The notes under the pieces are model-generated. The model saw only the letters and a list, made by a program, of their open reading frames with translations, was not told the DNA's origin and did no database searches. Source: an uncultured bacterium (GTDB taxonomy: Bacteria; Zixibacteria; MSB-5A5; CAIYYT01). Taken from it: 64,000 nucleotides of DNA. The stretch is from the NCBI GenBank assembly GCA_963726455.1, contig CAVSCK010000004.1:1824001-1888000 (forward strand). The letters run 5' to 3'. Shown here in pieces: positions 6,667-25,604 of this stretch (position 1 is its first letter; each line of letters opens with the position of its first letter). The position numbers were made by a program, and so were the translations under genes.

Positions 6667-6678
6667 GCGAAATCAAGT

Positions 6679-9600: not shown

Positions 9601-9810
9601 ATTATAATGACTACTCTGGCAACCGTCCTTGGCCTGATCCCAATGGCAATTGGACTGGGCGGCGAATCGACCCAGGCGCCGCTCGCCATCGCCGTAATCG
9701 GCGGCCTGACCATTTCCTCGGCACTGACCCTATTCTTCATTCCAGTGCTCTATACCATCTTCGAAGAGAAGTTCCGCCGCGAACTGAAAGCGCCGATCGA
9801 GCCCAACTGA
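6679..9810 (+). CDS. RND efflux permease (AcrB/AcrD/AcrF family)
   Basis: 1043 aa; LPIDLLP, GRLVDDSIV, VFLP, FFP.QDEG and RLKPIIMTT motifs in the two-halves RND layout. Confidence 0.95.
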   Translation: MWLTRLALRYPISTFLIAVTILVMGVVSFTQLPIDLLPNITIPVVSTITFYSGASPLDMEQTVTVPTERAVSSVNDVSYVQSTTREGISQVRVNFNWDANLDVGLVDIVQRVNRILNQMPTGVSQPVVVRFDLTTIPVCNIAIAGNMDERDLYDLALNTIEPQIEHLNGVASAQVSGGRIREIHVLLDRDRILAMQLPVQSIINAVASSNLIIPSGDLKTGPFDYSLKTESRFNVVKPLEDVVIKTVNGVPIRIRDIGKVEDSYQDQTEVVRINGEPGVNLSVQKLANANTIQVVDNVLHSLPKLVGVPENVKMSLSFDQSVYIKQTITGLQHEALIGALLAMLIIMAFLRNIRGTLIIIVAIPLSILIAFIWFRFGNVTLNIMTFGGLALAVGRLVDDSIVELEAISRHYNERQEGLSKLQATLDAAREVASPIFVSTLSTVIVFLPIIFTTGLAKLLFVPLATTISVALFGSFFISRTVTPLMCLNFLPPEKHLNRESVRPSDRIRVVAHDAIESLDHWYGVRLRWALSHRKLIIITIVGASVLSLGLFKFIGTEFFPDQDEGQFAVSAKLPVGTRTEVTEALVAKIENVLRANVPEMQTMISDIGVPSARSGTLFSRNTGTHAANIRVALVPASERKRSEFDIVKAVRPKLMTIPGAQIYVSPGGFLRFLLNFGSSAPIDVEVHGFDLATGSALSKKVAAIVRSVPGTTDVQVSREDDLPELRIRIDRVRAGVLGISVGDIANTINTLIDGSVASLYTDPDNGNQYNILVRLSEDYRSHIEDLQSIVLTTSSGQQVLLGNVATIERTASPVEIDRKYQQRLVEVTGNVQGRDLGSVSKDIQNQLDTLSIPPGFEVVQTGNVEQQQETFKVLLLALLLAVLLVYVVMASQFQSLVDPFIIMFTVPLGVVGVLWTLFLTNTTLSVTSFQGVIIMIGIVVSNGVLLVDYTNRLRRSGVPLHDAVLRGGITRLKPIIMTTLATVLGLIPMAIGLGGESTQAPLAIAVIGGLTISSALTLFFIPVLYTIFEEKFRRELKAPIEPN

Positions 9811-10200: not shown

Positions 10201-11127
10201 ATGATGCCTACAGTCGCAGCCAGAACAACGCCAAGGAACACCGCGGTGCATAAAGGTCGGCAGCAAAGATCAGCCGCTCGGACTATTGTGTACCTGGTCA
10301 CTTTCGCTGTCCTGATGGTGCTGTTCGTGCATGGTTTCTCTTACTACTTGACCCCCTATGCTGAGCGCGCGCGGCAACTTGCGTATCGACAACTTCGACC
10401 GGCCGGCGAGATGGGTCTCATTTACGGGATCATGGGCGCCTCAATGATGGTCATAATGCTGACCTACTCACTGCGCAAACGCATGAAATCCCTGGCCCGT
10501 TATGGTGCGCTGTCCGGCTGGCTGCATTTCCATATCTACCTTGGGATAGTCGGGCCATTATTTATTATTCTGCACACGTCATTCAAGGTTCAGGGGCTGG
10601 TTGCAGTCAGTTTCTGGTCGATGGTCGTGGTAGCGGCCAGCGGCTATTTCGGCAGATACCTCTACCTGCAGATTCCCCGTAACATCCAGGGAAACGTCCT
10701 AAGCTTGCAGGAGCTGGAGGAAAGTAATCGCGTCCTCAATGCCACATTAGTCGAGGAATATCAGCTCAGCCCGGAATTGATCACCAAGCTCGACAGTCTG
10801 GCCGATGTGCAGATTCCACAAACCGCCGGGCTATGGCACGCGCTGGGTTTGACCCTGGCAAGCGACGTACGCTGGTGGTTTACCAAGCGACGATTCAGAA
10901 AAGAATACGCACAATCTTTGGCTCTGCCCAGGAGCAAACAGCGGCAGTTGATGCGCGTGACTAGTGAACGCACCCAGCTTCGCCGCCGCATTGCTCTGTT
11001 GAGCCGAATACAGCAACTGTTCCACTACTGGTATGTGCTACACAAACCATTTGCGATCATCATGTACATTGTGATGTCGATACACATTACGGTCGCAGTC
11101 TGGACGGGGTATGCATGGGTTTTTTGA
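10201..11127 (+). CDS. Inner-membrane protein, ferric-reductase-like / cytochrome b-type
   Basis: About 5 hydrophobic segments with His at heme-b-like positions (WLHFHIYLG, ILHTSF, WYVLHKPF, SIHIT). First gene of the multiheme operon. Confidence 0.65.
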   Translation: MMPTVAARTTPRNTAVHKGRQQRSAARTIVYLVTFAVLMVLFVHGFSYYLTPYAERARQLAYRQLRPAGEMGLIYGIMGASMMVIMLTYSLRKRMKSLARYGALSGWLHFHIYLGIVGPLFIILHTSFKVQGLVAVSFWSMVVVAASGYFGRYLYLQIPRNIQGNVLSLQELEESNRVLNATLVEEYQLSPELITKLDSLADVQIPQTAGLWHALGLTLASDVRWWFTKRRFRKEYAQSLALPRSKQRQLMRVTSERTQLRRRIALLSRIQQLFHYWYVLHKPFAIIMYIVMSIHITVAVWTGYAWVF

Positions 11128-12854
11128 GGAGTTGGGCAGGAACTCACGCACATCTCACGGGATCGAAGCCACCTCTCGTCCTGCTGGTGGCAGTAGTACT
11201 ATTATGTGGAACAAACCGCAGCTTTGCCCAGCTTTCGCCGGGCCCGCTTTTTCGATCTCATGCGTCCCTCGAGGGCGTTGAGAACTGTCAGAAGTGTCAC
11301 GACCCAAATCAGGAGAAAGCACCTGGAAAGTGCCTCTCCTGCCATAAGGAGATTGCTGCAGAAATGGATCGCCATGACGGTCTGCACGGGAAGCAGAATT
11401 ATCGCGAATGCCGGGATTGTCATGTCGAGCATCAGGGTGTTGACGTTGAACTGGTCTACTGGAAAGACGGAATGCATAACTTCGATCACAATTTGACCGG
11501 ATATACACTGGAAGGCAAGCACGCCACCCTTAAGTGCCGTGATTGCCACGTAGCGAAGAATATCGCCGATAAAACAGCCCTGGCAGAGGCGGAGAAGGAT
11601 CTCACTAGGACGTTCCTTGGCCTGGATCCGCGTTGCCTGACTTGCCACGCCGACGAACATCATGGTCAGTTGGCTGCCACCTGCGCTAATTGCCACAATT
11701 ACTCCGCCTGGAAACCGGCCCCCACGTTCGATCACGCCAAGGCGAAATACGTCCTGACCGGCAAACATCTACAGGTAAAGTGTGATAAGTGTCATTTGCC
11801 GATCCCCGACAGCACTCAGGTAAACCAAAAGAATTATGCTCACTATACCGGTTTGAAATTTCAGAAGTGCATTGACTGCCACAAAGACGCCCATGACGGA
11901 CGGCTTGGCACTGATTGCGAAAAGTGCCACAATCCCGACGGCTGGGGAGTCACGCAACTCGCAAAATTCGATCATAGCAAGACGCGCTACCCGCTGCTGG
12001 GTCTGCACGGTCAGTTGACTTGTGACAAGTGCCACAAGCGGGGTGAACCTGTCAAGGGACTCCATTACCAGAAGTGTCTCGACTGCCATACTGATATTCA
12101 TCTGGGCGAATTCGCCGACCGCCCCCAGAAAGGTGCTTGCGAAGAATGCCATTCGGTGAAAGGGTTCAAGTTCACCAGCTTCACGCTGGAGATGCATCAA
12201 CAGACCAAGTACAAGTTGCAGGGCTCGCACCAGGCCGTCAGCTGTGACCTTTGCCATAGCAAGACGACGCCGGTCGCCAAGGCAACAGGCAAGAGGTTCA
12301 CTTTCAATTCGACCCGCTGCTCCGTATGTCATTCAGACGTTCATAAGAACGCCCTTGATAAATTCGTATCAGTGGACGGGTGTGAGCTGTGCCATGACGT
12401 CGCCGGTTGGCGTACCGTCAAGTTTGACCATAGCCGTACGAAATTCGCGCTTGAAGGGAAGCATATTGGCATTGTCTGCCGTGATTGCCACAACGGAAAA
12501 GATAAGAAAGTTCCGGTCGAGCAACTCAAATGGGCCGGCGTTTCACGCAAATGCGAAGACTGCCATAAGGACAACCATCACGATCAATTTTCTCAAGTCG
12601 CTAAGATGGCTGACTCAACTTCATCATATTGCGAGCGCTGCCATACCGTCAAGGCCTGGACCGGGGAAAAATTCAACCACAACAGAGATTCGCAATTCAA
12701 ACTGGAAGGCGCGCACCAGAAAGTTGCCTGCGCCGGTTGCCACAAGAAGGTGCAGGAGGGTGAAGTGACATTCGTGCGCTATAAGCCGCTGTCATCCGCC
12801 TGCAAGAGCTGTCATGCGGAAGGCACTCTCGAGGAAAAGGGGAAAACCTTATGA
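11115..12854 (+). CDS. Exported multiheme cytochrome c, 20 CxxCH
   Basis: 20 CxxCH counted by hand, a signal-like N-terminus, and repeating FDH..T.Y.L.G.H units. Overlaps both neighbouring genes. Confidence 0.92.
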   Translation: MGFLRSWAGTHAHLTGSKPPLVLLVAVVLLCGTNRSFAQLSPGPLFRSHASLEGVENCQKCHDPNQEKAPGKCLSCHKEIAAEMDRHDGLHGKQNYRECRDCHVEHQGVDVELVYWKDGMHNFDHNLTGYTLEGKHATLKCRDCHVAKNIADKTALAEAEKDLTRTFLGLDPRCLTCHADEHHGQLAATCANCHNYSAWKPAPTFDHAKAKYVLTGKHLQVKCDKCHLPIPDSTQVNQKNYAHYTGLKFQKCIDCHKDAHDGRLGTDCEKCHNPDGWGVTQLAKFDHSKTRYPLLGLHGQLTCDKCHKRGEPVKGLHYQKCLDCHTDIHLGEFADRPQKGACEECHSVKGFKFTSFTLEMHQQTKYKLQGSHQAVSCDLCHSKTTPVAKATGKRFTFNSTRCSVCHSDVHKNALDKFVSVDGCELCHDVAGWRTVKFDHSRTKFALEGKHIGIVCRDCHNGKDKKVPVEQLKWAGVSRKCEDCHKDNHHDQFSQVAKMADSTSSYCERCHTVKAWTGEKFNHNRDSQFKLEGAHQKVACAGCHKKVQEGEVTFVRYKPLSSACKSCHAEGTLEEKGKTL

Positions 12855-15800
12855 AGCGATTTACACTCGGTTTGATAGCGGTACTGATTCTGGTAGCGGG
12901 CGTAACTGTGGTAAGCCAGCAGCCGCCCAAGAACCCACACGGCCAGTTGAAATGGGATTGCCAGGTGTGCCATACGCCGCAATCGTGGTCCACGATGCGC
13001 GAGCCGATGACTTTCGATCATAACGAGACCGGATTCGCTCTTATCGGCAGGCACCGCACTGCGGCATGCAGCGGCTGCCACAAGGATTTACACTTTGCCA
13101 AAGTCGAACAGACCTGCGTGAAGTGTCATAACGATGTTCATCGCGGCCAGATGGGCGCCTCCTGCCAGGATTGCCATACTTCAGAAAACTGGCAGAACCG
13201 TCAGGACGTGTTCAATCTTCACTCTCAGAATGGATTCCTGCTGTCCGGAGTGCATGCCATCACCGATTGTGAGGCCTGCCACAAAAACGAACCGGGCAAA
13301 GAATTCTCTGCTGTCTCGACCGAGTGCGAAGCGTGCCATGCCTCAACTTATGCCGCTACCCAGAACCCCAATCACGCCCAGGCAGGGTTCCCATTGCATT
13401 GCGCCTCCTGCCACGAGGCGGAACTCATGGCCTGGCGAACTGTCAAGTTCGATCATTCCGCGACGTTCCCATTAATCGGCGGCCACAGCCGTGCGGTTTG
13501 CTCTGACTGCCACAAGGGTCAGCTTACGGCGGCACCAGTAAGGATTGCTTCAGTTGCCATGAAGCCAGTTTCGCCAGCGCCAACGATCCAAATCACGTGA
13601 AAGGCAGTTACGACCATGATTGCAAGGGCTGCCACACAATCCAGGCCTGGAAACCGGCAACCGTTGATCACAATGCCACTCGTTTTCCACTGACAGGCGC
13701 ACACGCGACTGTTTCCTGTGATAAGTGCCACACGAACGGATTTACCGGCACAACAACCGCCTGCTACGACTGTCATCAGGACAAGTTTACTTCGGTGGCA
13801 GACCCTAATCATGTCACGAACAATTTTAATCACGAATGCACTAAGTGCCACACGACAGCGGCATGGAAGCCCGCGACCTTCGACCACGCCGGAACTACTT
13901 TTCCGTTAACCGGTGCTCATGCGGCCGCGTCCTGCATCGCCTGTCACAGCTGCCGGCTATGTGAACACGCCGACCGCGTGCTATAGCTGCCACCAGGACA
14001 AGTTTACCTCAGTGACCGATCCGAACCACGTCACCGGGAATTTCGATCATAACTGCACGATTTGCCATTCAACCACTGCCTGGTCACCGGCAACTTTCGA
14101 TCACAGCAAGACCACCTTCCCGTTGACGGGAGCGCATCAGACGACCACTTGCGCCGCTTGTCACACTTCGGGTTACACTACAACGTCGACCGCTTGTTAC
14201 AGTTGCCATCAGGACAAATTCGTGGGCGCCAAGGATCCGGATCACGTGGCCGGCAATTTTGATCATGTATGTTCAAAATGCCATTCGACAACGGCATGGT
14301 CACCCGCGACTTTCGACCACAATCAAACGCAATTCCCACTGACCGGAAAACATGTGGGTGTCGCTTGTCAGTCCTGCCACACAACCGGCTACGTCAACAC
14401 TCCGACCGACTGCTATAGTTGCCACCAGCAGCAATATGTCAACGTGACTGATCCTAATCATGTCGCCAACAACTACAGCCACGACTGCACTAAATGCCAT
14501 TCTACGTCCGGCTGGGGCAACGATTCATTTGATCATAACGTTACGGCCTTCCCCTTAACAGGCGCTCACACTACGGTGACATGTGCCACTTGCCACACCA
14601 GCGGCTACTCAAATACACCGTCGGATTGCTATAGCTGCCACCAGACCAAATTCACCTCCGTGGCCGATCCAAACCATGTCACTAACAATTACAGCCACAC
14701 CTGCTCGACTTGTCACACGACGACTGACTGGGTCACCGTGACATTCGACCATAGTATCACTCCTTTTGCGTTGACCGGCGCACACGTGCCTTTGACCTGC
14801 TCCGCCTGTCACACCTCCGGCTTTGCCAATACGCCGAGCACCTGCTACGGATGTCATCAGAGTACGTTCACCGGAGTTACCGACCCGAACCACGTGTCCG
14901 GCAATTACAGCCATACCTGCACCCAGTGCCATACGACATCGGCCTGGAAACCGGCGACCTTCGATCATTCGGGTACACCTTTCCCGCTGACCGGGGCGCA
15001 TACAACAGCTTCCTGTACCGGATGTCATGCGAACGGTTTCGCCGGAACTCCAACCGCCTGTTATAGCTGTCACCAGGATAAATTCACATCAGTAGTCGAT
15101 CCCAACCACGTGACCGGAAACTTCGATCACACTTGCACGAAGTGCCATTCTACCTCGGTCTGGAAGCCGGCGACGTTCGATCATTCGCAGTCAGTCTTTC
15201 CTCTGACCGGAAAACATACGACCGTCACCTGCACGGCTTGCCACACGAACGGCTTTACATCGACTCCGACTGACTGCTATAGCTGTCACCAAACCGTGTA
15301 TACGTCGGCGACAAACCCGAATCACGTGCAAAACAACTTCGGCCAGGACTGCACAATTTGCCACAATACTACTGCCTGGCAGCCGTCAACTTTCAATCAC
15401 AGTTCCACGGCTTTCCCGTTGACCGGCGCACACGCCAATGTGACGTCTTGCGTAACCTGCCATGCTTCCGGTTACGTAAGTACTTCGACGGCCTGTTACT
15501 CGTGCCATGCGACCGACTTCACGGGAGCCACCGATCCAAACCACGTGACCAACAATTACGATCACAATTGCTCCAAGTGCCACAGCACCATATCGTGGGC
15601 CTCAGCGACGTTCGATCACAGTACCACCGGTTTTGCCCTGGTGGGTAAGCACATTGGGTTAACGTGTGTCTCCTGTCATTCGGCGGGCTATGTCGGCACT
15701 TCGCCGTTGTGCTATTCTTGTCACGAAACCGCGTTCACGGGCGCCACCAGTCCCAACCACGTGCAGAATCTCTTTGACCATGATTGCACTAAGTGCCATA

Positions 15801-17986
15801 ACGCCAACGGCTGGACTCCGTCGACCTTCAATCACGCGTCGACAACGTTCCCGCTGACCGGAGCACATACAAGTCTGACTTGTATCTCCTGCCACGCATC
15901 CGGATATGTGAACACTCCGAAGGATTGCTACTCCTGCCATCAAACGACATACACAGGGGTGACGGATCCCAATCATGTAGCGCTCAATTACAGTCATGAT
16001 TGCACGCAGTGTCACAGCACGACATCCTGGTCAGGGGCCACGTTCGATCACAGTACCACCGGCTTTGCCCTGACCGGCAAACATATCGGAGTCACGTGTC
16101 TCACCTGTCACACATCTGGCTACGCCGGAACCTCTCCGGCCTGCTACTCCTGCCACCAGACGGCGTTTACCGGTGCGGCAACTCCGAGCCACACTACGAA
16201 CAACTTCGATCACGACTGCACGATCTGCCATAACACGAGCGGCTGGACACCGTCCACCTTTAACCATGCGACGTCGCCGTTCCCGCTAACCGGTGCACAT
16301 ACAAGTTTGACTTGTATCTCCTGCCACACTACGGGGTATGTTAATACACCTACTGACTGCTATGCGTGTCACCAGACTAATTTCACCGGCACGACGAATC
16401 CTCCGCATGTCAGCAACAACTTCAGCCATACGTGCACGACTTGCCACACCACAACGGCCTGGTCACCGGCTACTTTCAATCATGCGACGACGACCTTCCC
16501 GCTAACCGGAGCGCACACAACGGCGACTTGCATTTCCTGCCACTCCGCCGGATATGTGAACACACCGACTGATTGCTATGCCTGCCACCAGACTAATTTC
16601 ACCGGCACGACGAATCCGCCGCATGTCAGCAATAATTTCAGCCATACTTGCACGACGTGCCATACGACGACGGCCTGGTCGCCGGCTACTTTCAATCATG
16701 CGACGACTTCCTTCCCGCTGACCGGTGCACACACAACGGCGACTTGTATCTCTTGCCACTCCGCCGGATATGTGAATACACCGACCGATTGTTACACCTG
16801 TCATCTAGCCAATTTCACCGGCACGACGAATCCGCCGCATGTCAGCAACAACTTCAGCCATACTTGCACGACCTGCCATAGTACAACCGCCTGGTCTCCG
16901 TCAACCTTCAATCACGCGACGACGGCGTTCCCATTGACGGGCGCACACGTCAGTCTGACCTGCATTTCCTGCCATGCATCCGGATACACTAGTACACCAA
17001 CTGATTGTTACGCTTGCCACCAGACTGACTTCACAGGTGCAACGAGTCCGGCGCATGTCAGCAACAATTTCAGCCATACCTGTACGACCTGCCATAGTAC
17101 AACCGCCTGGTCACCGTCAACCTTCAATCACGCGACGACGGCGTTCCCATTGACAGGCGCACATGTAAGTCTGACTTGTATTTCCTGCCATGCATCCGGA
17201 TACACAAGTACGCCGACTGATTGTTACTCTTGTCATCAGGCGGCCTTCACCGGAGTCACCGACCCAAATCACGTGACCAACAACTTCAGTCACACCTGTA
17301 CAACCTGTCACAGTACGACTGCCTGGTCTCCGGCCACGTTCAACCACAGCACCACAGTGTTCCCGCTTACCGGCGCGCATGTGAGTGCGACCTGTATTTC
17401 GTGTCATGCGTCGGGCTACGCCAATACACCGACGGCCTGCAATTCCTGCCACCACAGCGCTTTTACCGGCGCTACAAATCCAAACCATACGTCGGCCGGC
17501 TTCGCAACGACCTGTAACACGTGCCACACGACAACGGCGTGGGTGCCTTCAACCTGGAGCCATACTACTACCGGTTTTGCACTCACGGGCGGCCATGGCG
17601 GCTTGCAGTGCATTTCCTGCCATGCCAACGGCTACACGACGACCTTGCCTGCTTGTTACAGTTGCCATCAGGCCGACTACAACGGTACTACCAATCCTAA
17701 CCATGTGGCAGCTCAGTTTCCGACAACGTGCCAGAATTGTCATAGCACGACCAATTGGACATCGACGACCTGGAATCATGATTCACAGTACTTCCCGATA
17801 TATTCCGGCCATCACCAGGGACGCTGGGACGTTTGCTCAGACTGTCACACCAATGCGAGTAATTTCGCCGTATTCTCTTGCATAACGGGCTGCCATTCGC
17901 AGTCGAGCACGAACTCAGATCACAGCAGTGTAAACAACTACCAGTACAACAGCAATTCCTGCTATAGCTGTCACCCGCGTGGCTGA
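12851..17986 (+). CDS. Giant repetitive multiheme cytochrome c (about 1710 aa, 69 CxxCH + 1 CxxxCH), split by frameshifts near 13524 and 13948
   Basis: ORFs 12851-13600, 13597-13986 and 13913-17986 join into one continuous repeat pattern. After CSDCH-KGQ the shifted frame reads YGGTSKDCFSCH..NDPNHVKG; after CIACH the shifted frame reads AAGYVNTPTACYSCH. Only the first fragment has a signal peptide. Confidence 0.88.
13450..17780 (+). repeat. Intragenic tandem repeat, 216-nt (72-aa) unit, about 20 copies
   Basis: Unit: CxxCH-x11-H-x8-CxxCH-x4-W-x4-F[DN]H-x4-FPLTG[AK]H-x4-CxxCH-x2-G[YF]-x6. Confidence 0.9.
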
Positions 17987-18001
17987 GCACATTAAGGAGC
18001 T

Positions 18002-19639
18002 TTGACATACATGATGAAGCATCACTGGATTTCGCAGGGCAGATTGCTGATACTACTTGCATCGGTTGTGTTGCTGGTATGGGGGAGTCTGATTGCTAAT
18101 CCCAGCCGAACTCTGAAAGTCACCTACGTTTCTACGGAGTATGTCTATGTTGACGGCGGTACGGCCGATGGCTTGACTACTGGAACGCACCTGACGATTG
18201 TCCAGAAAGACTCTGTGCTCGCGGAACTTGAGGTCGCATTTTCGTCGGAGCGTTCGGCGGCCTGCCGCATCATAACGGCAGCGACCGAGATCAAGGCCGG
18301 CATGACCGTCACCTCTCCCGGTGCTCCGGATCAGGACACCACTGCCACGGCGAAGCCGGCGGACACAACTGCAGCCGTTGCCCAACCCGCTCCGGCGCCA
18401 GTCACTGTTCCGCGCGTGACCCCGACGATCACCGGCAGCGTCTCCGTTATCTTCGACCAATCAATTGACAACACCGCCTTCGGCAATAACCTCACGCAAT
18501 CAACCGGACGGCTCAACCTGCGAGGCCGGCACATCGGCGGCCATGACATAAGTTTCTCGATTCAGATGCGGGCGCGTCATGATCAGCGCAGCCGCCCGTT
18601 TCTGAACGACGTCGGTCGGAACGCCTGGGTGAACCGTTTGTATGAATTCTATGTGTCCTATGACGCCAAAGATGCTCCGGTCAATTTCTATGCCGGCCGC
18701 ATTCCAATTAGACGCGTCGGCAGCGTCGGCTTTGTCGACGGACTCCTGGTGGAGAATCGAATCGCGGGATCACTGAGATCCGGATTCTATGGCGGCGCGC
18801 AATCCAAGTGGCAGTACGCCGACCAAACTACGTCACTACAAAAATACGGCACGTACCTCAACTATTCGTCCGGCAGCTACGCCACGAACATGCTCGATCT
18901 CACGCTCGCCTTGTCCGGGGAATACCATTCGGCCACGGCCAGCCGTGAATTGGTATACTCACAGGGCCGATTCAACCGGGGCGACCGGTTCTATATCAGC
19001 GCGATCACCGAAGTAGATGTCAACCGTGGTTGGCGAATGCAGAAAGTTGGCCGCACATTTTCTTTGTCCAGCGTTTATCTGGACTCCCGGTTGAAATTGA
19101 CCAATCGCCTGGCAACCGGTTTGAGCTATGACAGCCGGGAGAATTACTGGACCTACGACATTCGCACTCTGCGCGACAGTCTGTTCGACAGCCATCTGCG
19201 CCAGGGCTTACGCGCCCGGGTCGATTACCGACTGTTCAACGGCTACTTCGCCTCCGCCAATGTCGGAACTAATCGCCGCAACGGCGACCCCGGTCAGAGC
19301 AATTCCTACGGGTTCAGTTTGAGCAAGGGCGCTTTTCTTTTCCGCCGATCAGACGTGAATCTGCAGTATTCGGCTTTCTCGGGCCTGGGACAGAGTGGCG
19401 ACAATTTCTCGGCGCGTCTCGGCAGTTCATTCCTCACGCGAAACTATGTGAGCGTCGGCTATGGATTCTATCGTTTCCGCTGGTCTTCAGCTGTACCGCT
19501 GCGTACGAATACATGGCTGGAATTGTCGACGCGGCTGGAATTTCTCAAGAACTTTTTCCTCTATGGTCTGTTTCAAGAGAATACGGGGGACGACATTAAA
19601 GGACATCGAGTGCAGTTGGAACTCGGTCATTCACTTTAA
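18002..19639 (+). CDS. Putative outer-membrane beta-barrel protein (porin of a porin-cytochrome complex); start may be the ATG at 18011
   Basis: Signal peptide, a small N-terminal beta domain, a Pro/Ala/Thr linker, then about 400 aa of alternating amphipathic strands rich in G/Y/F/R, ending RVQLELGHSL. AAGGAG SD at 17994-17999. Confidence 0.7.
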   Translation: MTYMMKHHWISQGRLLILLASVVLLVWGSLIANPSRTLKVTYVSTEYVYVDGGTADGLTTGTHLTIVQKDSVLAELEVAFSSERSAACRIITAATEIKAGMTVTSPGAPDQDTTATAKPADTTAAVAQPAPAPVTVPRVTPTITGSVSVIFDQSIDNTAFGNNLTQSTGRLNLRGRHIGGHDISFSIQMRARHDQRSRPFLNDVGRNAWVNRLYEFYVSYDAKDAPVNFYAGRIPIRRVGSVGFVDGLLVENRIAGSLRSGFYGGAQSKWQYADQTTSLQKYGTYLNYSSGSYATNMLDLTLALSGEYHSATASRELVYSQGRFNRGDRFYISAITEVDVNRGWRMQKVGRTFSLSSVYLDSRLKLTNRLATGLSYDSRENYWTYDIRTLRDSLFDSHLRQGLRARVDYRLFNGYFASANVGTNRRNGDPGQSNSYGFSLSKGAFLFRRSDVNLQYSAFSGLGQSGDNFSARLGSSFLTRNYVSVGYGFYRFRWSSAVPLRTNTWLELSTRLEFLKNFFLYGLFQENTGDDIKGHRVQLELGHSL

Positions 19640-19683
19640 CTGTCTTGTTCGCCGGTTAGCGGTGGACGAAGGATCGAAAAGTA

Positions 19684-21024
19684 ATGGAAAGAATTCTCAT
19701 CTGGGCTGCGGCCGGACTTATGATACTGGCGATTTTCTTGCCCTATTTCGTTCGCTTTCGCCGCGACCACCGCAAGATGCTGCACCAGAAACTGGAAGCT
19801 CAATCGCTGGGAATAGATCGCGCTAAAGCTCAATACCCGATGATTGACGCCAGATACTGCATCGGCTGCGGCTCCTGTGCCGCCGCTTGTCCGGAAGGCG
19901 ATGTCCTGGGCGTCGTGCACGGAACGGCAACAATCATTAACGGGGAAAGATGTATCGGCCACGGCGCTTGCGAGCGAGTCTGCCCGGTGGGCGCTCTTAA
20001 AGTCGGCTTAGGCGATATCTCGAGCCGTCCCGACATTCCGATCCTCTCTGACGACAACGAAACATCCGTCCCAGGAATGTATATCGCGGGAGAACTGAGC
20101 GGCCTTTCTCTGATCCGCAATGCCATCGATCAGGGCAAGAAGGTCGTAGACGCCATCGCCCAGAATCCCAAAAATTCCTCAAAGAACAGGATGTTTGATG
20201 TGATCATCGTGGGCGCCGGTCCGGCGGGGCTGAGTGCCGCCTTAACAGCTATTAAGAACCGTCTCAGCTATCTGGTGATAGATGAATTCGATGTCGGCGG
20301 GACGATTCTTCATTACCCGCATCGCAAACTGGTCATGACTCAGCCGGTGGAAATCCCTCCCTATGGCTGGCTAACCGAAGAAGAATACTCCAAGGAAACT
20401 CTGCTCGGCATCTGGACTGATATCGTTACCCAGTACGGTATCAAGGTCTGCGCCGGTCAGAAGGTCGCCCAGGTGGTCAAGGAAGACGGTGTATTTGAAG
20501 TACGTACGCAAAACGATACGTATACCTCAAGTTACGTGGTGTTGGCTCTGGGTCGCCGCGGTACGCCACGCAAGTTGGAAGTTGCGGGCGAGGAAATGCC
20601 CAAGGTAATGTATAAGCTGATCGATGCCCGCTCCTATACCAACATGGATTTACTGGTTGTGGGTGGTGGCGACAGCGCAATCGAAGCTGCTGTTGGACTC
20701 TCGCGCCAGCCGGGCAACCGCGTAAGTATCTCGTATCGCAAGAGCAGTTTCTTCCGAGTAAAGAAGAAAAACGAACTCGCCATTACTGAGCTGATTCGTA
20801 AGGGAACCGTCACCCCGATATGGGATTCTGCGGTTCAGGAAGTTAAGGCAAAAAGCGTAGCCCTGAAGACCAAGAACGGCCCCATCGAAATTGCGAATGA
20901 CTTTGTCTTCGTGCTCATTGGTGGCATTCCTCCCTTTGATATGCTCAAACAGATGGGTATCAAATTCGGTGGCGAGCCACACGCTGAAAAGACCCCTGTA
21001 AAGGAACTGGTCAAAGCCAGTTGA
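19684..21024 (+). CDS. Membrane-anchored 4Fe-4S dicluster / FAD-NAD(P)H oxidoreductase (TrxB/YpdA-like fold)
   Basis: N-terminal TM helix; CIGCGSC...CP and CIGHGAC...CP; FAD motif IVGAGPAG; NAD(P) motif VVGGGDSA followed by SYRK. No redox-active CxxC. Confidence 0.85.
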   Translation: MERILIWAAAGLMILAIFLPYFVRFRRDHRKMLHQKLEAQSLGIDRAKAQYPMIDARYCIGCGSCAAACPEGDVLGVVHGTATIINGERCIGHGACERVCPVGALKVGLGDISSRPDIPILSDDNETSVPGMYIAGELSGLSLIRNAIDQGKKVVDAIAQNPKNSSKNRMFDVIIVGAGPAGLSAALTAIKNRLSYLVIDEFDVGGTILHYPHRKLVMTQPVEIPPYGWLTEEEYSKETLLGIWTDIVTQYGIKVCAGQKVAQVVKEDGVFEVRTQNDTYTSSYVVLALGRRGTPRKLEVAGEEMPKVMYKLIDARSYTNMDLLVVGGGDSAIEAAVGLSRQPGNRVSISYRKSSFFRVKKKNELAITELIRKGTVTPIWDSAVQEVKAKSVALKTKNGPIEIANDFVFVLIGGIPPFDMLKQMGIKFGGEPHAEKTPVKELVKAS

Positions 21025-21447: not shown

Positions 21448-24400
21448 ATGAAACGAGCGCTAACACTTTCGCTTCTTGTCTGTGTTTGGGCGTTCACGGC
21501 ATCGACGGCATTGGCAGTGTCGCCGCCGGTAGCCCAATGCCAAAATGTAACTGTTGAAGCCGACGCCAACTGCTCTGCTTCAGCGAGCGTTGACAATGGC
21601 TCATATGATCCCGAAGGCGGCGCTCTGACTATCACTCAGGAGCCGGCGGGACCCTATGCTCTCGGTCAAACCTCAGTCAAGCTGGTAGTAGTTGCTGCCA
21701 GCGGCCTTGCTGATACTTGCGAAGCCGTCGTTACCGTGAATGACACCACCCCTCCGACTGTAACCTGCCCGGCTGACATCCTTGTCGGCAACGATCCCGG
21801 AGAATGCGGAGCGAGTGTCAGCTACCAGATTTCAGCAACCGACAATTGTTCGATTTCCAGCCCTCTTGGTAAGCAAGCCGCGTCCTTCTATCCAGTCGGC
21901 ACGACCATAATCACTCCGGTTGTAACCGATGGTTCCGGAAATGAAGGCACCTGTTCATTCAAGGTCACGGTCAAGGATACTGAGCTGCCGAAGGTAATCT
22001 GTCCGGCAAATATCGAGCAGGGCAATGATCCCGGTATGTGCGGCGCTGTTGTCAACTTCAATGCAGAAGCCACCGATAACTGCCCGGGCGTGAAAGTCAC
22101 AACTAATCCTGTTTCCGGTTCGACGTTCCCCCTTGGAGCCACAACTGTTTGGGCCTTCGCCACCGATGCATCTGGCAACAAGGATAGCTGCTCGTTCACG
22201 GTCACAATAAACGACACCCAGAAACCGGCGGTTGCCTGTCCGGCGCCGATTATTGTCGGCAATGATCCGGGTCAATGCGCTGCCATCGTTAACTACGATG
22301 TTACAGCAACCGACAACTGTGACCCGAATCCCATTGTCGTCTTGTCCGTACCTTCCGGATCGCTCTGGCCGGTCGGCACTCATGATGTGACGGCAATTGC
22401 CACCGATGCCGCCGGGAATGCTGACACCTGCCACTTTACGGTTCAGGTCAACGACACCGAGAAACCGCACGTCACGTGCCCTCCTGATATGCCCACGCAT
22501 AATGATCCCGGTCAGTGTGGCGCGTTTGTCACTTTCGATGTTACCGGCCTTGATAACTGTGCATTTGACAATCAGAATATCGTCGTGACGCCGCCGTCGG
22601 GATCATTCTTCCCGATCGGTCCGACGCAGGTGACGGCTATCGGCACCGACCTTGCAGGTAACGCCGACACTTGCAGCTTCATGGTCACAGTCAGTGACAC
22701 CACCAAACCCCATATTGATCATATCACTGATATCGTGAAAAACAACGATCCGGGACAATGCGGCGCTGTCGTTTCTTTCGACCATAACGCCATCGACAAT
22801 TGCCCAGTCGGACTGGTCGTGGTCGCCACACCTCAATCGGGATCCTTCTTCGCTGTTGGGCCAAGTCAGGTGATTATCACCGCGACCGACGCATCCGGCA
22901 ACGCCGACACCATATACTTCAATGTTACAGTCAACGATGTTGAAAAGCCCGTGGTTACCTGCCCGGCAAACATCGTCGTCGAAGTGGGCGCGAACGACAC
23001 CGGTTCAGTCGTCAATTTTGACGTCCCGGCAACGGACAACTGTCCCGGCCTGCAGGTGATAACGACTCCATTGTCGGGTTCGTTCTTCCGACTCGGTGTG
23101 ACTCCGGTGAAGACGTACGCCATTGACGCACATGCGTTGGTAGACTCGTGCGAATTCCTCGTTGAAGTGAAGAAGGCGCTCAATCCCGGATTACGCGATT
23201 GACGCCCATCCTGACACGCTGTTTGCTACCGAAGGAATTTCGGATTCGATCCTGTATTTCATCGATTTGACTTCGATTGATGGTTTCAGTTTCCCGGTCG
23301 ATTTGTTCTTCTCGGGTGCGCCGACGGGAGTGGTGCTCAATCTGGGAACGGCGTCGTTGACGCCTCCGGGAGCGACGACACTGGGCGGACATACGGGTGT
23401 GAATACTCCGGCGGGTACATACGAGATCACGATATCCGCAGTGTGGCCGGCGAAGGCGGGGCAACATGATACCAAGGTTTACCTTGTTGTGAATCCATGC
23501 ACGGAGACACCGATCCCGACCGTGAGTCAGGAGGTTTTCGATGTCCAGGTGACTGAAGGACAGAATCTTCCCGATGATTCCGTTTGGATCACCAACAGCG
23601 CACTCTGCGGAACACTGTCCTGGCAAGCATCATCGGATGCCGGGTGGCTCGCGCCTGATCCGATCAATGGCCAAGTGGTTGCAGGTAATACTCCGGGCTC
23701 GAAGATGATGTTGAAGTACAACACCTCCACATTATCGCCGGCGATCTACGTTGCCCACGTGACTGTTATCGCCGACAAGAAGACGCCGGGCGCCGTCGTT
23801 ACGGTAACTTTGCACGTAAGTCCGCTGCCGCCAACGGCCTGTGTGTCAGGCACAATCCAGGATACGAATCACAATACAATCGCGGGCGCCACTGTCGAAC
23901 TCTATCTTTCCTATCCTTTCATAGATTTCCCGATCGAAGCAACGACTTCCGCCTCCGACGGTTCGTACGAGTTGTGCTTGCCTCCGGAGAAACCGGCCGC
24001 CTTTTATGTGCGGGCTCACAAACCCGGTTACTATCCTGCCTACACCGGGACCGGCCTTCCCGCCACTGACGTAATACTGACACTGCTTCCCAACGGTGGC
24101 ACCGTCAGACCGACGTACCAGTGGGTAGATCTCTTCTGTAAGTTCAACGCACTATTCGACGGTGTTCCGGTGCCTCCCGGCAGTGTCATTGAGGCCTTCG
24201 ATCCACAGGGCGTCTTGTGCGGCCAGTGGAACGTGACTCAGCATGGCACTTTCGGATTTATGCCGGTCTATCGCGATGATCAGTATACTCCGGCTATCGA
24301 CGAGGGCTGTGACCCCGGCGACCTGATCAGGGTAAAGGTAGACGGACATCTGGTTGCTTCTGTCGCTGACCCCATTCACTGGGGCGAAAATGGTGACCGT

Positions 24401-25604
24401 TACGAATACTGTTTCGACACGCCTCCGCCCATTCCGACCTGTATCGTGCTCAAGCAGGGCTGGAATCTGGTTTCCTGGAATCTCGACACACCGAATGATA
24501 GTATCATGATCCTGGCCAAGGACGTGATGAACAACGTCGACGTCATCCTTGGTTTTGAGCAGGGTGGCTTGACCTATGATCCGATGCTGCCGCAATTCTC
24601 TAGTCTGCTTTACGTCGACCATCTTCATGGTTTCTGGTTCCGCATGAATGCCGAGGATACCCTGTGCGTTGACGGCCCGATGGTGGCCGCGTCCACACCG
24701 ATTAACCTCGAAAAGAACTGGAATCTGGTCAGCTATCTTCCGACCGTTCCCTACTGCGGTTCCGGTCGCGTTGAATTCCATCTGGAACAAGGTCATTGTC
24801 GTGCTTGGCTACGATCAAGCGGCACAGACCTACGATCCGGCATTTCCGCAGTTGGCTACTTTGCTGGAAATGAACAGGTGGTTCGGTTATTGGATCAAGA
24901 CCACCGACGCGGCGACATTGATCTATCCCGAACCGGGCCCGACCTTCGCTAAGACCGTCAGCGACATTTCTGGCACCGGCATTAACAGCCGCGTGGCGAT
25001 CTCAAATAGCTGGGTCAATCTCTACGGTTCGGGCGCCACGCTGAACGGTGACATCCTCCCGGTCGGAGCCGTGATCGAGGCCTTCGACGCCACCGGTACG
25101 CTGGTTGGCGAGACTGTGGTTCGCTCTGCCGGTAAGTTCGGCTTCATGCCGGTCTATGGCGCCGAAACAGTGAACGGTGATGTTGTTGGCAAATCCGCTG
25201 GCAGCACCATCACGCTGAAGGTCAACGGCGAAGCGGCACAGGAAACAGTCACCTGGTCGCAAAACGGTGATCGCATTCGCATCGACAGGTTGACCACGTC
25301 GTCCAAGAATGCGAGCAGTCTGCCGACTACTTTCACGTTGAATCAGAACTATCCGAATCCGTTCAACCCTGAGACCACCATCGACTACTACGTCGCCCAG
25401 GGCAGCCACGTGGAGTTGGCAATCTACAACCTTCTCGGTGACAAGATCAAGACCCTGGTCAGCGGTTACCAAGCGGCAGGCAACTATTCAATCAAGTGGC
25501 GTGCCGATTCCGACGATGGTTCGCTGGTTGCTTCGGGCGTGTACTTCTACAAGTTGACGGCCGGTGATTATACCGATTCGAAGAAAATGACCTTGATGAA
25601 GTAG
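21448..25604 (+). CDS. Large secreted HYR-repeat protein with a FlgD-Ig/T9SS-type C-terminal domain (about 1384 aa), split by frameshifts near 23186 and 24755
   Basis: GGAGG SD plus signal peptide; about 7 HYR-like units (V.DT..P...CP, ATDNC, SGS.FP.G). ORFs 23267-24952 and 24648-25604 continue it, with duplicated GWNLVS and FGFMPVY motifs across the second junction. Ends NQNYPNPFNPETTI...SGVYFYKL...KKMTLMK. Confidence 0.8.

What the first reader, a model, noticed from the sequence alone, without database searches (positions are those of the whole stretch)
10201..21024. Self-contained trans-envelope electron conduit operon: NAD(P)H flavo-ferredoxin, cytochrome b, 20-heme, about 70-heme and porin
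Seen: five co-oriented, tightly packed genes (overlaps at 11115-11127 and 12851-12854) whose products map to each cell compartment. These are a TM-anchored FAD/NAD(P)H + Fe-S enzyme, a His-rich membrane protein, two exported cytochromes with about 90 heme-binding motifs in total, and a beta-barrel. Established: porin-cytochrome complexes (MtrAB, MtoAB, Geobacter Pcc) carry electrons across the outer membrane and are usually fed by quinol oxidases such as CymA, CbcL or ImcH. Inference: this module could couple cytoplasmic NAD(P)H directly to extracellular acceptors or donors, using cytochromes that do not resemble MtrA/MtrC. I know of no characterized system with this layout, but cannot rule out that it has been annotated elsewhere.
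Basis: partly seen in the sequence, partly recalled or inferred. Interest (0 to 1): 0.92.

Follow-up and report, generated by a model that had tools for sequence, protein, structure and literature searches.

The report
Porin-cytochrome conduit with NAD(P)H module
This is a conserved five-gene cluster that looks built to carry electrons from NAD(P)H inside the cell, through a heme-b membrane protein and two giant multiheme cytochromes, out through an outer-membrane barrel; its four-gene core is already in print as the untested "PCC3" cluster, and the NAD(P)H module is the new part.

Summary
The "about 70-heme" gene (12851-17986, 69 CXXCH) is split into three ORFs by two frameshifts.

- **Core cluster:** Membrane protein, 20-heme cytochrome, repeat cytochrome and barrel match the published but functionally unverified PCC3 cluster (He 2017). 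The 308-aa membrane protein carries that paper's defining motifs: SGXXG and two HX13H pairs.
- **Barrel:** 18002-19639 folds as a 22-strand outer-membrane barrel (pLDDT 81).
- **Fifth gene:** It encodes an N-terminal anchor helix, an Fe-S dicluster domain and a thioredoxin-reductase-like FAD/NAD(P)H domain. PCC3 papers do not list such a gene. Split analogues are listed for PCC4/ptd.
- **Co-occurrence:** All 61 of 201 sampled genomes with gene 5 also have the barrel. It is missing only from loci cut off inside the cluster (22 of 80).
- **Fusions:** Of 120 longer relatives, 47 are fused to the membrane protein, 50 to cytochromes, and one to both. Their topology puts the flavoprotein in the cytoplasm.

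Best reading (0.55): a NOX-like, possibly quinone-independent, NAD(P)H-to-exterior electron chain. Direction, heme binding and the location of the 69-heme protein are inferred. Novelty: new variant of a known kind. A cultured Emticicia strain carries the cluster on a plasmid.

The parts
10201..11127 (+). g1: inner-membrane protein of 308 aa, the predicted di-heme-b trans-membrane electron carrier (PCC3-type 'IMP')
   Evidence: AF2 model has pLDDT 78.7. Membrane helices are 14-50, 70-94, 104-126, 132-157 and the end of 244-302, with a helical insert at 169-237. H111, H125, S147, G148, G151, H281 and H295 are invariant in 42 sequences. This gives H111-x13-H125, SGxxG and H281-x13-H295. Weak sub-threshold Pfam hits among 42 members: DUF4405 in 18, Ferric_reduct in 9, Ni_hydr_CYTB in 6.
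11115..12854 (+). g2: exported 20-heme c-type cytochrome of 579 aa, the predicted periplasmic wire
   Evidence: 20 CXXCH, 29 aa per heme. Pfam Cytochrome_C7 9.4e-22, Cytochrom_c3_2 8.7e-17. DmsE-family model scores 61 bits against a cut-off of 192. N-terminal hydrophobic signal. Conserved at 44-52% identity in relatives.
12851..17986 (+). g3: repeat-built multiheme cytochrome, 69 CXXCH over about 1711 codons, interrupted by two frameshifts (about 13515-13530 and about 13948-13952)
   Evidence: Three ORFs in frames 1/0/1. The reading continues across both sites in the neighbouring frame. It is a single ORF of 270-1725 aa in 15 of 18 relatives. 216-nt tandem units at 16216-17433. Thr 20%, Ser 10.5%, 24.8 aa per heme.
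18002..19639 (+). g4: outer-membrane beta-barrel of 545 aa with a small N-terminal beta domain and a disordered linker
   Evidence: AF2 pLDDT 81.4. Helix 3-28, beta domain 38-104, low-confidence linker 108-135, 22 strands at 142-544. Foldseek against PDB gives 231 chains at E<=0.001, and the listed top matches are all outer-membrane barrels. No Pfam or NCBIfam hit.
19684..21024 (+). g5: membrane-anchored cytoplasmic Fe-S flavoprotein of 446 aa (anchor helix, dicluster ferredoxin domain, TrxR/YpdA-like FAD and NAD(P)H domains)
   Evidence: Pfam and NCBIfam hits. Best solved relatives are YpdA/Bdr 7a7b at 1.4e-47, then TrxR and TrxR-type FNR. First Fe-S motif has four Cys. The second is C90-x2-H93-x2-C96-x3-C100-P, with His in 41 of 42 sequences. 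There is no redox CxxC outside the Fe-S domain. GGGDSA 327-332 is invariant. Basic stretch after the anchor helix. Fused relatives place the domain in the cytoplasm.

Best explanation
The cluster encodes one electron chain that runs from the cytoplasm to the cell surface.

**Proposed path:**
1. g5 is tethered to the inner membrane by one helix. It takes electrons from NAD(P)H at its FAD.
2. It passes them through its two Fe-S clusters. The second cluster is His-ligated or a 3Fe cluster.
3. g1 carries them across the membrane on two stacked b-hemes: H111/H281 on the cytoplasmic side and H125/H295 on the periplasmic side.
4. The 20-heme g2 takes them across the periplasm.
5. The repeat cytochrome g3 takes them through or beyond the g4 barrel to an insoluble or extracellular acceptor such as metal oxides, humics or a partner cell.

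The g5+g1 pair would work like a two-part NADPH oxidase (NOX) with a cytochrome wire as acceptor in place of O2. It need not use the quinone pool. It would serve as an electron sink, not as a coupling site.

**Shown:** the domains, the motifs, the barrel fold, the linkage of the genes and the topology.

**Inferred:** heme-b binding, direct g5-to-g1 transfer, outward direction, and the location of g3.
For: 1. **Parts.** Domain and motif evidence is given under 'parts'.
2. **Linkage within the phylum.** In a sample of 201 genomes, g4 is found in 68, g5 in 61 and g1 in 61. g5 never occurs without g4 (0 of 61). 59 genomes have all three. The two g5 genomes without g1 are fragmented, at 180 and 220 contigs.
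3. **Linkage across phyla.** The best 80 carry the labels Zixibacteria, Ignavibacteria, Calditrichota, Acidobacteriota, Abyssobacteria and Polyangiaceae.
   - 55 of 80 have all five genes.
   - 22 of 80 lack g5, and every one of these ends within 574 nt of its last cluster gene.
   - 3 of 80 have g5 but miss another hit.
4. **Linkage survives rearrangement.**
   - Order g5-g1-...-g4 occurs in 9 genomes.
   - Order g1-g5-g2-g3-g4 occurs on the Emticicia plasmid.
   - Orders g1-g2-g5 and g3-g4-g5-g1-g2 also occur.
5. **Fusions.** Of the 120 best longer g5 relatives, 47 are g5+g1 fusions and 50 are g5+cytochrome fusions (6-37 CXXCH). One (P0036) is g5+g1+20-heme, and 22 are other types.
   - The cytochrome parts are g2-like (36.6% identity over g2 residues 39-567) or g3-like (41-48%).
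   - Two proteins fuse a 4Fe-4S dicluster domain to a g1 homologue.
6. **Topology from the fusions.** One helix separates the g5 domain from a heme-bearing, hence periplasmic, domain in P0005. Five helices do so in P0036. So g5 is cytoplasmic and g1 runs N-in, C-out.
7. **Analogy.** Proteobacterial plasmids carry an FNR-type FAD/NAD + 2Fe-2S reductase, a g1-like protein (23-25% identity) and a cytochrome c3 as a three-gene unit.
8. **Direction.** Established bioenergetics, used here as inference: pushing electrons inward to NAD(P)+ would be uphill in potential and against the membrane potential, and no coupling subunit is present.
Against: - No experiment exists for this or any PCC3-type cluster.
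- g1 matches no solved fold (0 Foldseek hits at E<=0.001) and no PDB sequence. Its Pfam hits are all below the curated cut-offs. Heme-b binding therefore rests on motifs alone.
- The genome has menA, complex-I-type and heme-copper oxidase genes. A quinone route is available, and He et al. modelled the membrane protein as quinone-active.
- g3 carries two frameshifts here, so the system may be broken in this organism.
- g3 has no lipobox and no T9SS tail domain. g3-like domains occur fused to the inner-membrane-anchored g5. Its extracellular position is therefore unproven.
- Sequence cannot fix the direction of flow.
- In S. lithotrophicus, PCC3 transcripts fell on Fe(II). That argues against iron oxidation there but gives no positive function.
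Confidence: 0.55

Rival explanations
1. Quinone-linked version. g1 is a quinol/quinone-active cytochrome b, as He et al. drew for PCC3. g5 is a membrane-bound NAD(P)H:quinone reductase or an accessory. Electrons pass through the menaquinone pool and not directly from g5 to g1.
For: - He 2017 models the membrane protein as exchanging electrons with the quinone pool.
- The genome has menA over its cut-off.
- g5 belongs to the same two-dinucleotide-domain flavoprotein class as type-II NADH dehydrogenases (recalled). Its closest solved relatives are TrxR-like.
- 6 of 42 g1 relatives weakly match the hydrogenase-type cytochrome b561 family, whose members are quinone-reactive.
Against: - The Fe-S dicluster domain sits between anchor and flavin domain and is conserved. 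A quinone reductase does not need it.
- There are 47 g5+g1 single-chain fusions and two Fe-S+g1 fusions. These favour direct hand-over.
- No quinone-site motif was identified, but none was specifically tested.
Confidence: 0.2
2. Inward electron uptake. The conduit oxidises extracellular Fe(II), minerals or a cathode, as first proposed for PCC3 in iron oxidisers. g5 then reduces NAD(P)+ or a ferredoxin.
For: - PCC3 was discovered in iron-oxidiser genomes and drawn with inward flow.
- The PCC3 membrane-protein gene rose with iron-oxidising activity in Sideroxydans CL21.
- Multiheme wires are reversible in principle (established knowledge).
Against: - Reduction of NAD(P)+ from Fe(II)-range donors is uphill and against the membrane potential, and the cluster holds no energy-coupling subunit (inference).
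- Both PCC3 clusters of strain ES-1 were down-regulated on Fe(II).
- The hosts here carry labels of largely heterotrophic lineages. This is a weak argument.
Confidence: 0.1
3. The cluster is decaying in this genome. The two frameshifts in g3 are real, so the organism makes at most a truncated 8-heme product and the conduit is non-functional here, whatever it does elsewhere.
For: - Two frame changes lie inside g3.
- The second site is not in a homopolymer.
Against: - The two shifts cancel each other out (one base short, then one base extra), leaving the remaining 1340 codons open. The stretch between them also stays open in its own frame with 6 intact CXXCH.
- All other four genes are intact.
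- The genome is in 5 contigs, which suggests a long-read assembly where single-base indels are common (inference).
- Some relatives' cytochrome genes are also split in pieces.
Confidence: 0.15
4. Periplasm-only role. The cytochromes store electrons or feed periplasmic reductases or detoxification, and the barrel is an ordinary porin that happens to be linked.
For: - g3-like domains occur anchored to the inner membrane through fusion with g5.
- The g4 model matches general porins and ushers and no cytochrome-sheath barrel in the listed top matches.
Against: - g4 co-occurs with g5 in 61 of 61 genomes and stays in the cluster through several rearrangements.
- It has a conserved periplasmic N-terminal domain.
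- 69 hemes at about 25 aa per heme fit a long wire better than a redox partner of an enzyme. No enzyme gene lies in the cluster.
Confidence: 0.07

Closest known systems
PCC3 porin-cytochrome cluster (He et al. 2017, PMC5566968; Gallionellaceae work, PMC9900912)
   Same: - The parts match: barrel, one conserved periplasmic multiheme cytochrome (PCC3 median 21 hemes, here 20), one variable repeat cytochrome and a membrane protein.
- The repeat cytochrome is Thr/Ser/Ala-rich. PCC3 has a median of 34 hemes, up to 85, at 22-39 aa per heme. Here it has 69 hemes at 24.8 aa per heme.
- The membrane protein is about 300 aa with five helices, SGXXG and two HX13H pairs.
- Both are functionally untested.
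   Different: - PCC3 is described as four genes, in Alpha-, Beta- and Gammaproteobacteria, with a different gene order and barrels of up to 42 predicted strands.
- Here a fifth gene (g5) is constant, the hosts are other phyla, and the barrel has 22 strands.
- Sequence homology to proteobacterial PCC3 proteins could not be tested, because no such sequence was reachable.
PCC4 (He 2017) = ptdABCDEFG (bioRxiv 10.1101/2023.11.21.568154)
   Same: [quoted passage not shown] Its function is unknown.
   Different: - Its cytochromes are small (4, 5 and 10 hemes), and none is extracellular.
- The flavoprotein and the Fe-S protein are separate genes there. Here they are one membrane-anchored polypeptide.
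- He 2017 reports that its membrane proteins have no significant sequence similarity to those of PCC3.
MtrCAB / MtoAB / Geobacter Pcc conduits
   Same: The principle is the same: a cytochrome wire sheathed by an outer-membrane barrel.
   Different: - Those are fed from the quinol pool by CymA, ImcH or CbcL (established knowledge).
- MtrA and MtrC are decahemes, and MtrB has 26 strands (recalled).
- Here the family models score far below cut-off: DmsE family 61 and 40 bits against 192, OmcA/MtrC 17 against 209.
- g4 hits no model.
NADPH oxidase (NOX) and the bacterial two-part MsrQ-Fre system
   Same: A cytoplasmic NAD(P)H flavoprotein feeds a membrane protein with bis-His b-hemes on two helices, which carries electrons outward. 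He 2017 notes the same HX13H pattern in the ferric-reductase domain. Papers on bacterial NOX and MsrQ were seen only as search listings and abstract starts.
   Different: - The flavoprotein here is TrxR/YpdA-like with an Fe-S dicluster, not FNR-like.
- The acceptor is a multiheme cytochrome, not O2 or MsrP.
- Pfam Ferric_reduct is below cut-off (16.6 against 28 bits), and there is no fold match.
Flavin-based extracellular electron transfer of Listeria (dedicated Ndh2, EetA/B, PplA). Recalled, not looked up.
   Same: A dedicated NADH-oxidising enzyme is encoded with an extracellular electron transfer locus, so that the pathway acts as an NAD+-regenerating sink.
   Different: It is Gram-positive, quinone-dependent and flavin-based, with no multiheme cytochromes or barrel.

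Membership tests
PCC3 (He et al. 2017) | Outer-membrane beta-barrel gene in the cluster | tested here: met
   AF2 model shows a 22-strand barrel with pLDDT 81.4. 231 PDB barrel matches at E<=0.001.
PCC3 (He et al. 2017) | Periplasmic multiheme cytochrome with about 21 hemes | tested here: met
   g2 has 20 CXXCH in 579 aa and a signal sequence. Periplasmic location is inferred.
PCC3 (He et al. 2017) | Very large, low-complexity, repeat-built second cytochrome with 22-39 aa per heme | tested here: met
   69 CXXCH, 24.8 aa per heme, Thr 20%, Ser 10.5%, 216-nt tandem units. The gene is frameshifted here.
PCC3 (He et al. 2017) | Membrane protein of about 300 aa with five helices, SGXXG on helix 4 and WX3HX13H on helices 3 and 5 | tested here: met
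   308 aa. Helices as. S147-G-x-x-G151, W107-x3-H111-x13-H125 and W277-x3-H281-x13-H295. W107 is not conserved among relatives.
PCC3 (He et al. 2017) | Sequence homology to the proteobacterial type clusters (for example Slit_1446-1449) | not testable with these tools
The plasmid collection held only distant three-gene relatives.
PCC3 (He et al. 2017) | Four-gene composition | tested here: not met
   A fifth gene, g5, is present in every locus long enough to show it.
MtrCAB / MtoAB | MtrA/DmsE-family decaheme and MtrB-family barrel over the family cut-offs | tested here: not met
   TIGR03508 scores 61.2 and 40.4 bits against a cut-off of 192.2. TIGR03507 scores 17.2 against 209.3. g4 has no hit.
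Ferric-reductase / NOX transmembrane domain (PF01794) | Match over Pfam's gathering score | tested here: not met
   16.6 bits against 28. 9 of 42 relatives match at E<=0.01 with best E 0.0012, and none of those scores is shown to pass the cut-off.
Ferric-reductase / NOX transmembrane domain (PF01794) | Two bis-His pairs spaced HX13H on two helices | tested here: met
   H111/H125 and H281/H295 are invariant in 42 sequences.
Ferric-reductase / NOX transmembrane domain (PF01794) | Fold like solved NOX, STEAP or MsrQ-type structures | tested here: not met
   Foldseek of the g1 model against PDB gives 0 matches at E<=0.001. The profile against PDB sequences gives nothing. The model's long helices may hinder the search.
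Thioredoxin-reductase-like flavoproteins (TrxR, YpdA/Bdr, TrxR-type FNR) | Two Rossmann dinucleotide motifs and the overall domain | tested here: met
   Pyr_redox_3 5.9e-44. 7a7b at 1.4e-47. GAGPAG and GGGDSA are conserved.
Thioredoxin-reductase-like flavoproteins (TrxR, YpdA/Bdr, TrxR-type FNR) | Equivalog score, and for TrxR the redox-active CxxC | tested here: not met
   YpdA model scores 173.6 bits against 339.9. TrxR scores 92.8 against 343. The only Cys outside the Fe-S domain is C256.
2x[4Fe-4S] bacterial ferredoxin domain | Two CxxCxxCxxxCP motifs (8 Cys) | tested here: not met
   The first motif is complete. The second has His in place of the second Cys in 41 of 42 sequences and Ile in 1. 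The second cluster is therefore His-ligated or a 3Fe cluster.

The most novel reading that the evidence does not exclude
Many Gram-negative lineages own a quinone-independent respiratory 'exhaust'. It would be a NOX-like NAD(P)H dehydrogenase: a TrxR-type flavoprotein with an Fe-S pair and a new family of di-heme-b membrane proteins. It would be hard-wired, sometimes in a single polypeptide, to giant multiheme cytochromes that reach through an outer-membrane barrel. The labelled lineages include Zixibacteria, Calditrichota, Acidobacteriota, Myxococcota, Bacteroidota and, for the fused forms, Planctomycetota. This would be the first extracellular electron transfer route in diderm bacteria that starts at a cytoplasmic nucleotide and not at quinol. 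It would also reassign the PCC3 membrane protein from a quinol oxidase to the membrane half of a split NOX.
Probability: 0.4. Interest if true: 0.85.

Novelty: new variant of a known kind. Interest (0 to 1): 0.68.

Why it matters
- **A different entry point.** All well-studied electron conduits of diderm bacteria (Mtr, Pcc, Mto) draw on the quinol pool. A route fed straight from NAD(P)H would change how electron balances and energy yields are modelled for sediment and soil heterotrophs. It would offer a compact module for wiring cells to electrodes.
- **PCC3 gets a testable input.** PCC3 has stood since 2017 as a predicted conduit with an unexplained membrane protein. The constant partner gene and the natural fusions found here give it a concrete, testable input.
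- **It is widespread.** The g1 profile finds 2571 cluster representatives at E<=1e-10 among 1.84 billion. At least 581 loci occur in species-representative genomes.
- **It is testable in culture.** A cultured type strain, Emticicia oligotrophica DSM 17448, carries all five genes beside a cytochrome-c biogenesis gene on a 100-kb plasmid. Ordinary genetics and biochemistry can therefore test the idea.

Tried and rejected
- **Complex prediction.** g1+g5 with two hemes and two 4Fe-4S clusters returned no verdict (run scores 0.43, 0.01, 0.01). I draw nothing from it.
- **Public runs.** One DNA run with a small share of the words was listed, and no RNA holder was listed. Its single contig covers only 13039-13236. 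The two frameshift sites are therefore unchecked and expression is unknown.
- **First genome scan.** A genome-contig scan with g4 alone found no relative. The second and last scan used the g1 alignment. As a result no proteobacterial PCC3 locus could be fetched, and I could not test whether proteobacterial PCC3 also has a g5 gene nearby. The Atlas lists g5-like clusters whose commonest known phylum is Pseudomonadota. This is only a lead.
- **Plasmid searches.** Searches with g1, g5 and g2 gave Emticicia plus distant three-gene modules, and no PCC3.
- **Fold and sequence searches for g1.** Foldseek and a PDB sequence profile were both empty. The Atlas search for g1 gave only unnamed clusters, with Acidobacteriota and Gemmatimonadota commonest.
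- **Promoter and terminator scan.** It found no more sites than in shuffles.
- **Ideas rejected:**
  - An MtrAB-type cluster like the one described for Zixibacteria RBG-1. That one has MtrA/MtrB homologues and PetAB.
  - The peat EET1-4 clusters, which have 8-13 hemes and are a different architecture.
  - The 'PCC3 architecture' wording of PMC13013709, which refers to Geobacter OmbB-OmaB-OmcB.
  - A thiol-reductant role for g5+g1 in cytochrome maturation. g1 has no Cys.
- **Literature.** Searches for this layout were. None of the listed papers that I opened describes a fused Fe-S-flavoprotein gene in a PCC3-type cluster, or the g5 fusions. Supplementary tables of He 2017 (lists of PCC3 and PCC4 hosts and domain drawings) were closed and may bear on this.

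Full report
**What is in the window.** Between an RND efflux operon (4945-9810) and genes for HYR-domain and T9SS-sorted proteins (from 21436) lies a compact + strand block.
- g1 is 10201-11127, g2 is 11115-12854, g3 is 12851-17986, g4 is 18002-19639 and g5 is 19684-21024.
- They are joined by overlaps of 13 and 4 nt and gaps of 15 and 44 nt.
- About 390 and 410 nt of spacer lie on either side.
- A consensus promoter/terminator scan found no more sites than in shuffles.

**The frameshifts.** g3 is not one open frame.
- ORFs 12851-13600, 13597-13986 and 13913-17986 lie in frames 1, 0 and 1.
- At both junctions the repeat pattern of the protein continues in the neighbouring frame.
- The first junction looks one base short, next to a GGG run. 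The second looks one base long and is not in a homopolymer.
- Counted per frame, the gene has 8+6+55 = 69 CXXCH in about 1711 codons.
- In 15 of 18 related five-gene regions the gene is a single ORF of 270 to 1725 aa.
- The one public run found covers neither site. Whether these are assembly errors or real lesions is open. The genome is in only 5 contigs, which to me suggests long reads and hence errors, but that is inference.

**The proteins.**
- **g1** (308 aa, no Cys) is modelled at pLDDT 78.7.
  - It has four membrane helices, a helical insert of about 70 residues rich in Arg/Lys, and a long last helix.
  - Across 42 sequences from several phyla, H111, H125, S147, G148, G151, H281 and H295 never vary.
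  - These form two HX13H pairs on helices 3 and 5 and SGxxG on helix 4.
- **g2** has 20 CXXCH and **g3** has 69. Both hit generic c7/c3 models and score far below the cut-offs of the MtrA/DmsE and OmcA/MtrC families.
- **g4** has no family hit. It folds at pLDDT 81.4.
  - The model shows a signal helix, a small beta domain (38-104), a disordered Ala/Pro/Thr linker and a 22-strand barrel (142-544).
  - 231 PDB chains match at E<=0.001, and the listed ones are all outer-membrane barrels. No cytochrome-sheath barrel is among them.
- **g5** has a single N-terminal helix followed by a run of basic residues, a dicluster ferredoxin domain and a TrxR/YpdA-like flavoprotein.
  - It has no redox-active Cys pair.
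  - Its second Fe-S motif reads C-x2-H-x2-C-x3-C-P, with His in 41 of 42 sequences. That means a His-ligated 4Fe-4S or a 3Fe-4S cluster.
  - Recalled, not tested: such clusters sit at the exit of hydrogenase and succinate dehydrogenase Fe-S chains.
  - A Y-R-K/R...R pattern after the second Rossmann strand is conserved. From memory it resembles the NADPH 2'-phosphate site of TrxR. This is a lead only.

**Conservation.** I sampled 201 genomes from the window's phylum.
- g4 is found in 68. Three of these are marginal, and four have a divergent copy (at most 28% identity) with no g5.
- g5 is found in 61 (E<=1e-60) and g1 in 61.
- g5 never occurs without g4, and 59 genomes have all three.
- Of 20 regions fetched, 18 keep the order g1-g2-g3-g4-g5. 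The other two hold only distant g3-like and g4-like genes.

- The best 80 carry record titles of Zixibacteria, Ignavibacteria, Calditrichota, Acidobacteriota (Thermoanaerobaculia, Holophagae, Vicinamibacteria), Abyssobacteria and Polyangiaceae.
- 55 of 80 have all five genes, and 49 of these are in the window's order.
- 22 of 80 lack g5, and every one ends within 574 nt of its last cluster gene.
- 3 of 80 have g5 but miss another hit.
- Other orders occur: g5-g1-...-g4 in nine genomes of the phylum sample and in L112, g1-g2-g5 with g3-g4 placed divergently upstream, and g3-g4-g5-g1-g2.

A cultured strain, Emticicia oligotrophica DSM 17448, has the cluster on plasmid pEMTOL02.
- The order is ccsA, g1-like (38% identity), g5-like (39%), a 23-heme g2-like cytochrome (36%), a 40-heme g3-like cytochrome (43%) and a g4-like protein (22%, E 6.6e-12).

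The g1 profile finds 4217 cluster representatives at E<=0.001, 2571 at 1e-10 and 818 at 1e-30 among 1.84 billion.

**Fusions.** Among proteins of 782-2230 aa, 291 of 8000 scored candidates match g5 at E<=1e-30. I classed the 120 listed with profiles of g1 and g5 and a CXXCH count.
- 47 are g5 followed by g1, at about 783-850 aa. Some carry NCBI names of Planctomycetota.
- One, P0117, has g1 first and g5 second.
- One, P0036 (1395 aa), is g5+g1+a 20-heme g2-like domain.
- 50 are g5 plus a cytochrome of 6-37 hemes.
- 22 carry other additions, such as TPR.
- The cytochrome parts are g2-like (36.6% identity over nearly all of g2) or g3-like (41-48%).
- Searching longer relatives of g1 gave two proteins with a 4Fe-4S dicluster domain ahead of a g1 homologue.

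Heme attachment is periplasmic, so these chains fix the topology.
- One hydrophobic helix separates the g5 domain from the hemes in P0005.
- Five helices do so in P0036.
- The g5 domain is therefore cytoplasmic, and g1 runs from inside to outside, ending beside g2.

In proteobacterial plasmids (Glaciecola, Variovorax, Bradyrhizobium BTAi1), a different reductase precedes a g1-like protein (23-25% identity) and a cytochrome c3. This reductase is FNR-type: FAD_binding_6, NAD_binding_1 and 2Fe-2S. The theme 'NAD(P)H reductase, di-heme membrane protein, periplasmic multiheme cytochrome' has thus been assembled more than once.

**How it most likely works.** The proposed path is NAD(P)H to FAD, then two Fe-S clusters (g5, cytoplasm), then two b-hemes (g1, across the membrane). 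It continues through 20 c-hemes (g2, periplasm) and 69 c-hemes (g3) through or beyond the g4 barrel to an external acceptor.
- Shown by computation: the domains, motifs, barrel, gene linkage, fusions and topology.
- Inferred: heme-b binding, direct Fe-S to heme transfer, outward direction and the place of g3.
- The outward direction rests on energetics. The inward direction would have to reduce NAD(P)+ against both redox potential and membrane potential, and there is no coupling subunit.
- Outward flow from NAD(P)H conserves no energy at this step. I read the chain as an electron sink for redox balance.
- The genome also has menA, complex-I-type and heme-copper oxidase genes (the futalosine marker PF02621 was not found). 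The chain would therefore be a bypass, not the only route.
- g3 has no lipobox or T9SS tail, and g3-like domains occur tethered to the inner membrane in fusions. g3 may start in the periplasm and thread outward.

**Comparison with what is known.** He et al. 2017 defined PCC3 by a barrel, a periplasmic cytochrome, a very large low-complexity cytochrome and a membrane protein. I read passages and sections 15 and 16.
- The periplasmic cytochrome has a median of 21 hemes.
- The large cytochrome has up to 85 hemes at 22-39 aa per heme and is rich in Thr/Ser/Ala/Gly.
- The membrane protein is about 300 aa with five helices, SGXXG and two WX3HX13H motifs.
- Every one of these features is met here.
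- They found it in Proteobacteria, as four genes, and drew the membrane protein as quinone-active.

Later papers, of which I read passages only, still call PCC3 four genes and functionally unverified. In strain ES-1 both PCC3 clusters fell on Fe(II).

PCC4 of the same paper is the ptdABCDEFG operon of a 2024 preprint (passages). It does list an FAD/NAD(P) oxidoreductase, a 2x4Fe-4S protein and a ferric-reductase-like membrane protein beside a porin and 4-, 5- and 10-heme cytochromes. Its function is given as unknown.

The window's cluster thus joins PCC3-type cytochromes with a fused version of the PCC4/ptd-type cytoplasmic module. I could not test sequence homology to proteobacterial PCC3, nor whether those loci also have a g5 gene. 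The Atlas lists g5-like clusters commonest in Pseudomonadota, which makes that check worthwhile.

**Membership in other families.**
- Membership in the Mtr families is not met.
- For the ferric-reductase domain, membership is not met by score or fold, although the His pattern is shared.
- The three weak Pfam families hit by g1 relatives (DUF4405, Ferric_reduct, Ni_hydr_CYTB) belong, as I recall, to one clan of two-heme cytochromes.

**Verdict.** The layout is a new variant of a published, untested kind, not something without precedent.

New here, as far as my searches and the papers I opened show:
- the constant fifth gene;
- its His-bearing Fe-S motif;
- the g5+g1, g5+cytochrome and triple fusions that fix partners and topology;
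- the spread across non-proteobacterial phyla;
- a cultured plasmid-borne copy.

Noticed in passing
window 19950-19985 (g5 residues 90-100): The second Fe-S motif of g5 has His where a dicluster ferredoxin has its second Cys (C-x2-H-x2-C-x3-C-P). His is kept in 41 of 42 relatives and is Ile in one.
   Followed up: partly
L114 8073-11559; L116 9839-13513; L115 11270-13424 and 20363-23635: Proteobacterial plasmids (Glaciecola, Variovorax, Bradyrhizobium BTAi1, and by listing Alteromonas and Salinimonas) carry a three-gene unit. It consists of an FNR-type FAD/NAD + 2Fe-2S reductase of 600-690 aa, a g1-like membrane protein of about 250 aa sometimes annotated 'iron reductase', and a cytochrome c3 of about 260-290 aa. 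In Glaciecola it lies beside a NiFe hydrogenase operon.
   Followed up: partly
P0079-P0121 (about 820-990 aa); P0072-P0108 (about 1000-1380 aa): Other g5 relatives lack the anchor helix. They follow a 6-heme domain, a membrane helix and an FHA domain (some named Bryobacteraceae), or carry TPR repeats. These are possibly regulated variants of the same module.
   Followed up: no
window 14001-18000: GC skew drops to about -0.20 to -0.22 over g3, against about -0.03 around it. I presume this comes from the Thr/Cys/His-rich repeat codons.
   Followed up: no
window 23267-24952 and 24648-25604 (+): Two ORFs overlap by about 300 nt. The second holds only a T9SS C-terminal sorting domain. This may be one gene with a frameshift, which would bear on assembly quality. 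A quick translation did not settle it.
   Followed up: partly
window 4945-6666 (+): One 573-aa ORF combines a TetR N-terminal DNA-binding domain with HlyD membrane-fusion domains, just ahead of an AcrB-type pump. It is either an unusual fusion or two genes run together.
   Followed up: no
window 27206-33100 (-): A 1964-aa protein whose only Pfam hits are C-terminal T9SS sorting and FlgD-Ig domains.
   Followed up: no
L035, L050, L078, L081 versus most other loci: In some relatives' records, g2, g3 or g4 are split into 2-4 ORFs, while most records keep them whole. The repeat cytochrome genes seem prone to assembly indels or to real decay.
   Followed up: no
L079 5415-7845: One Acidobacteriota-labelled contig has g1 and g5 side by side with no cytochrome or barrel hit in the 5.4 kb before or 2.6 kb after.
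   Followed up: no
L033-L112 record titles: Records with the closest g1 proteins (45-53% identity) carry conflicting labels, 'Zixibacteria' and 'Ignavibacteria'. I did not name the window's own taxon.
   Followed up: no
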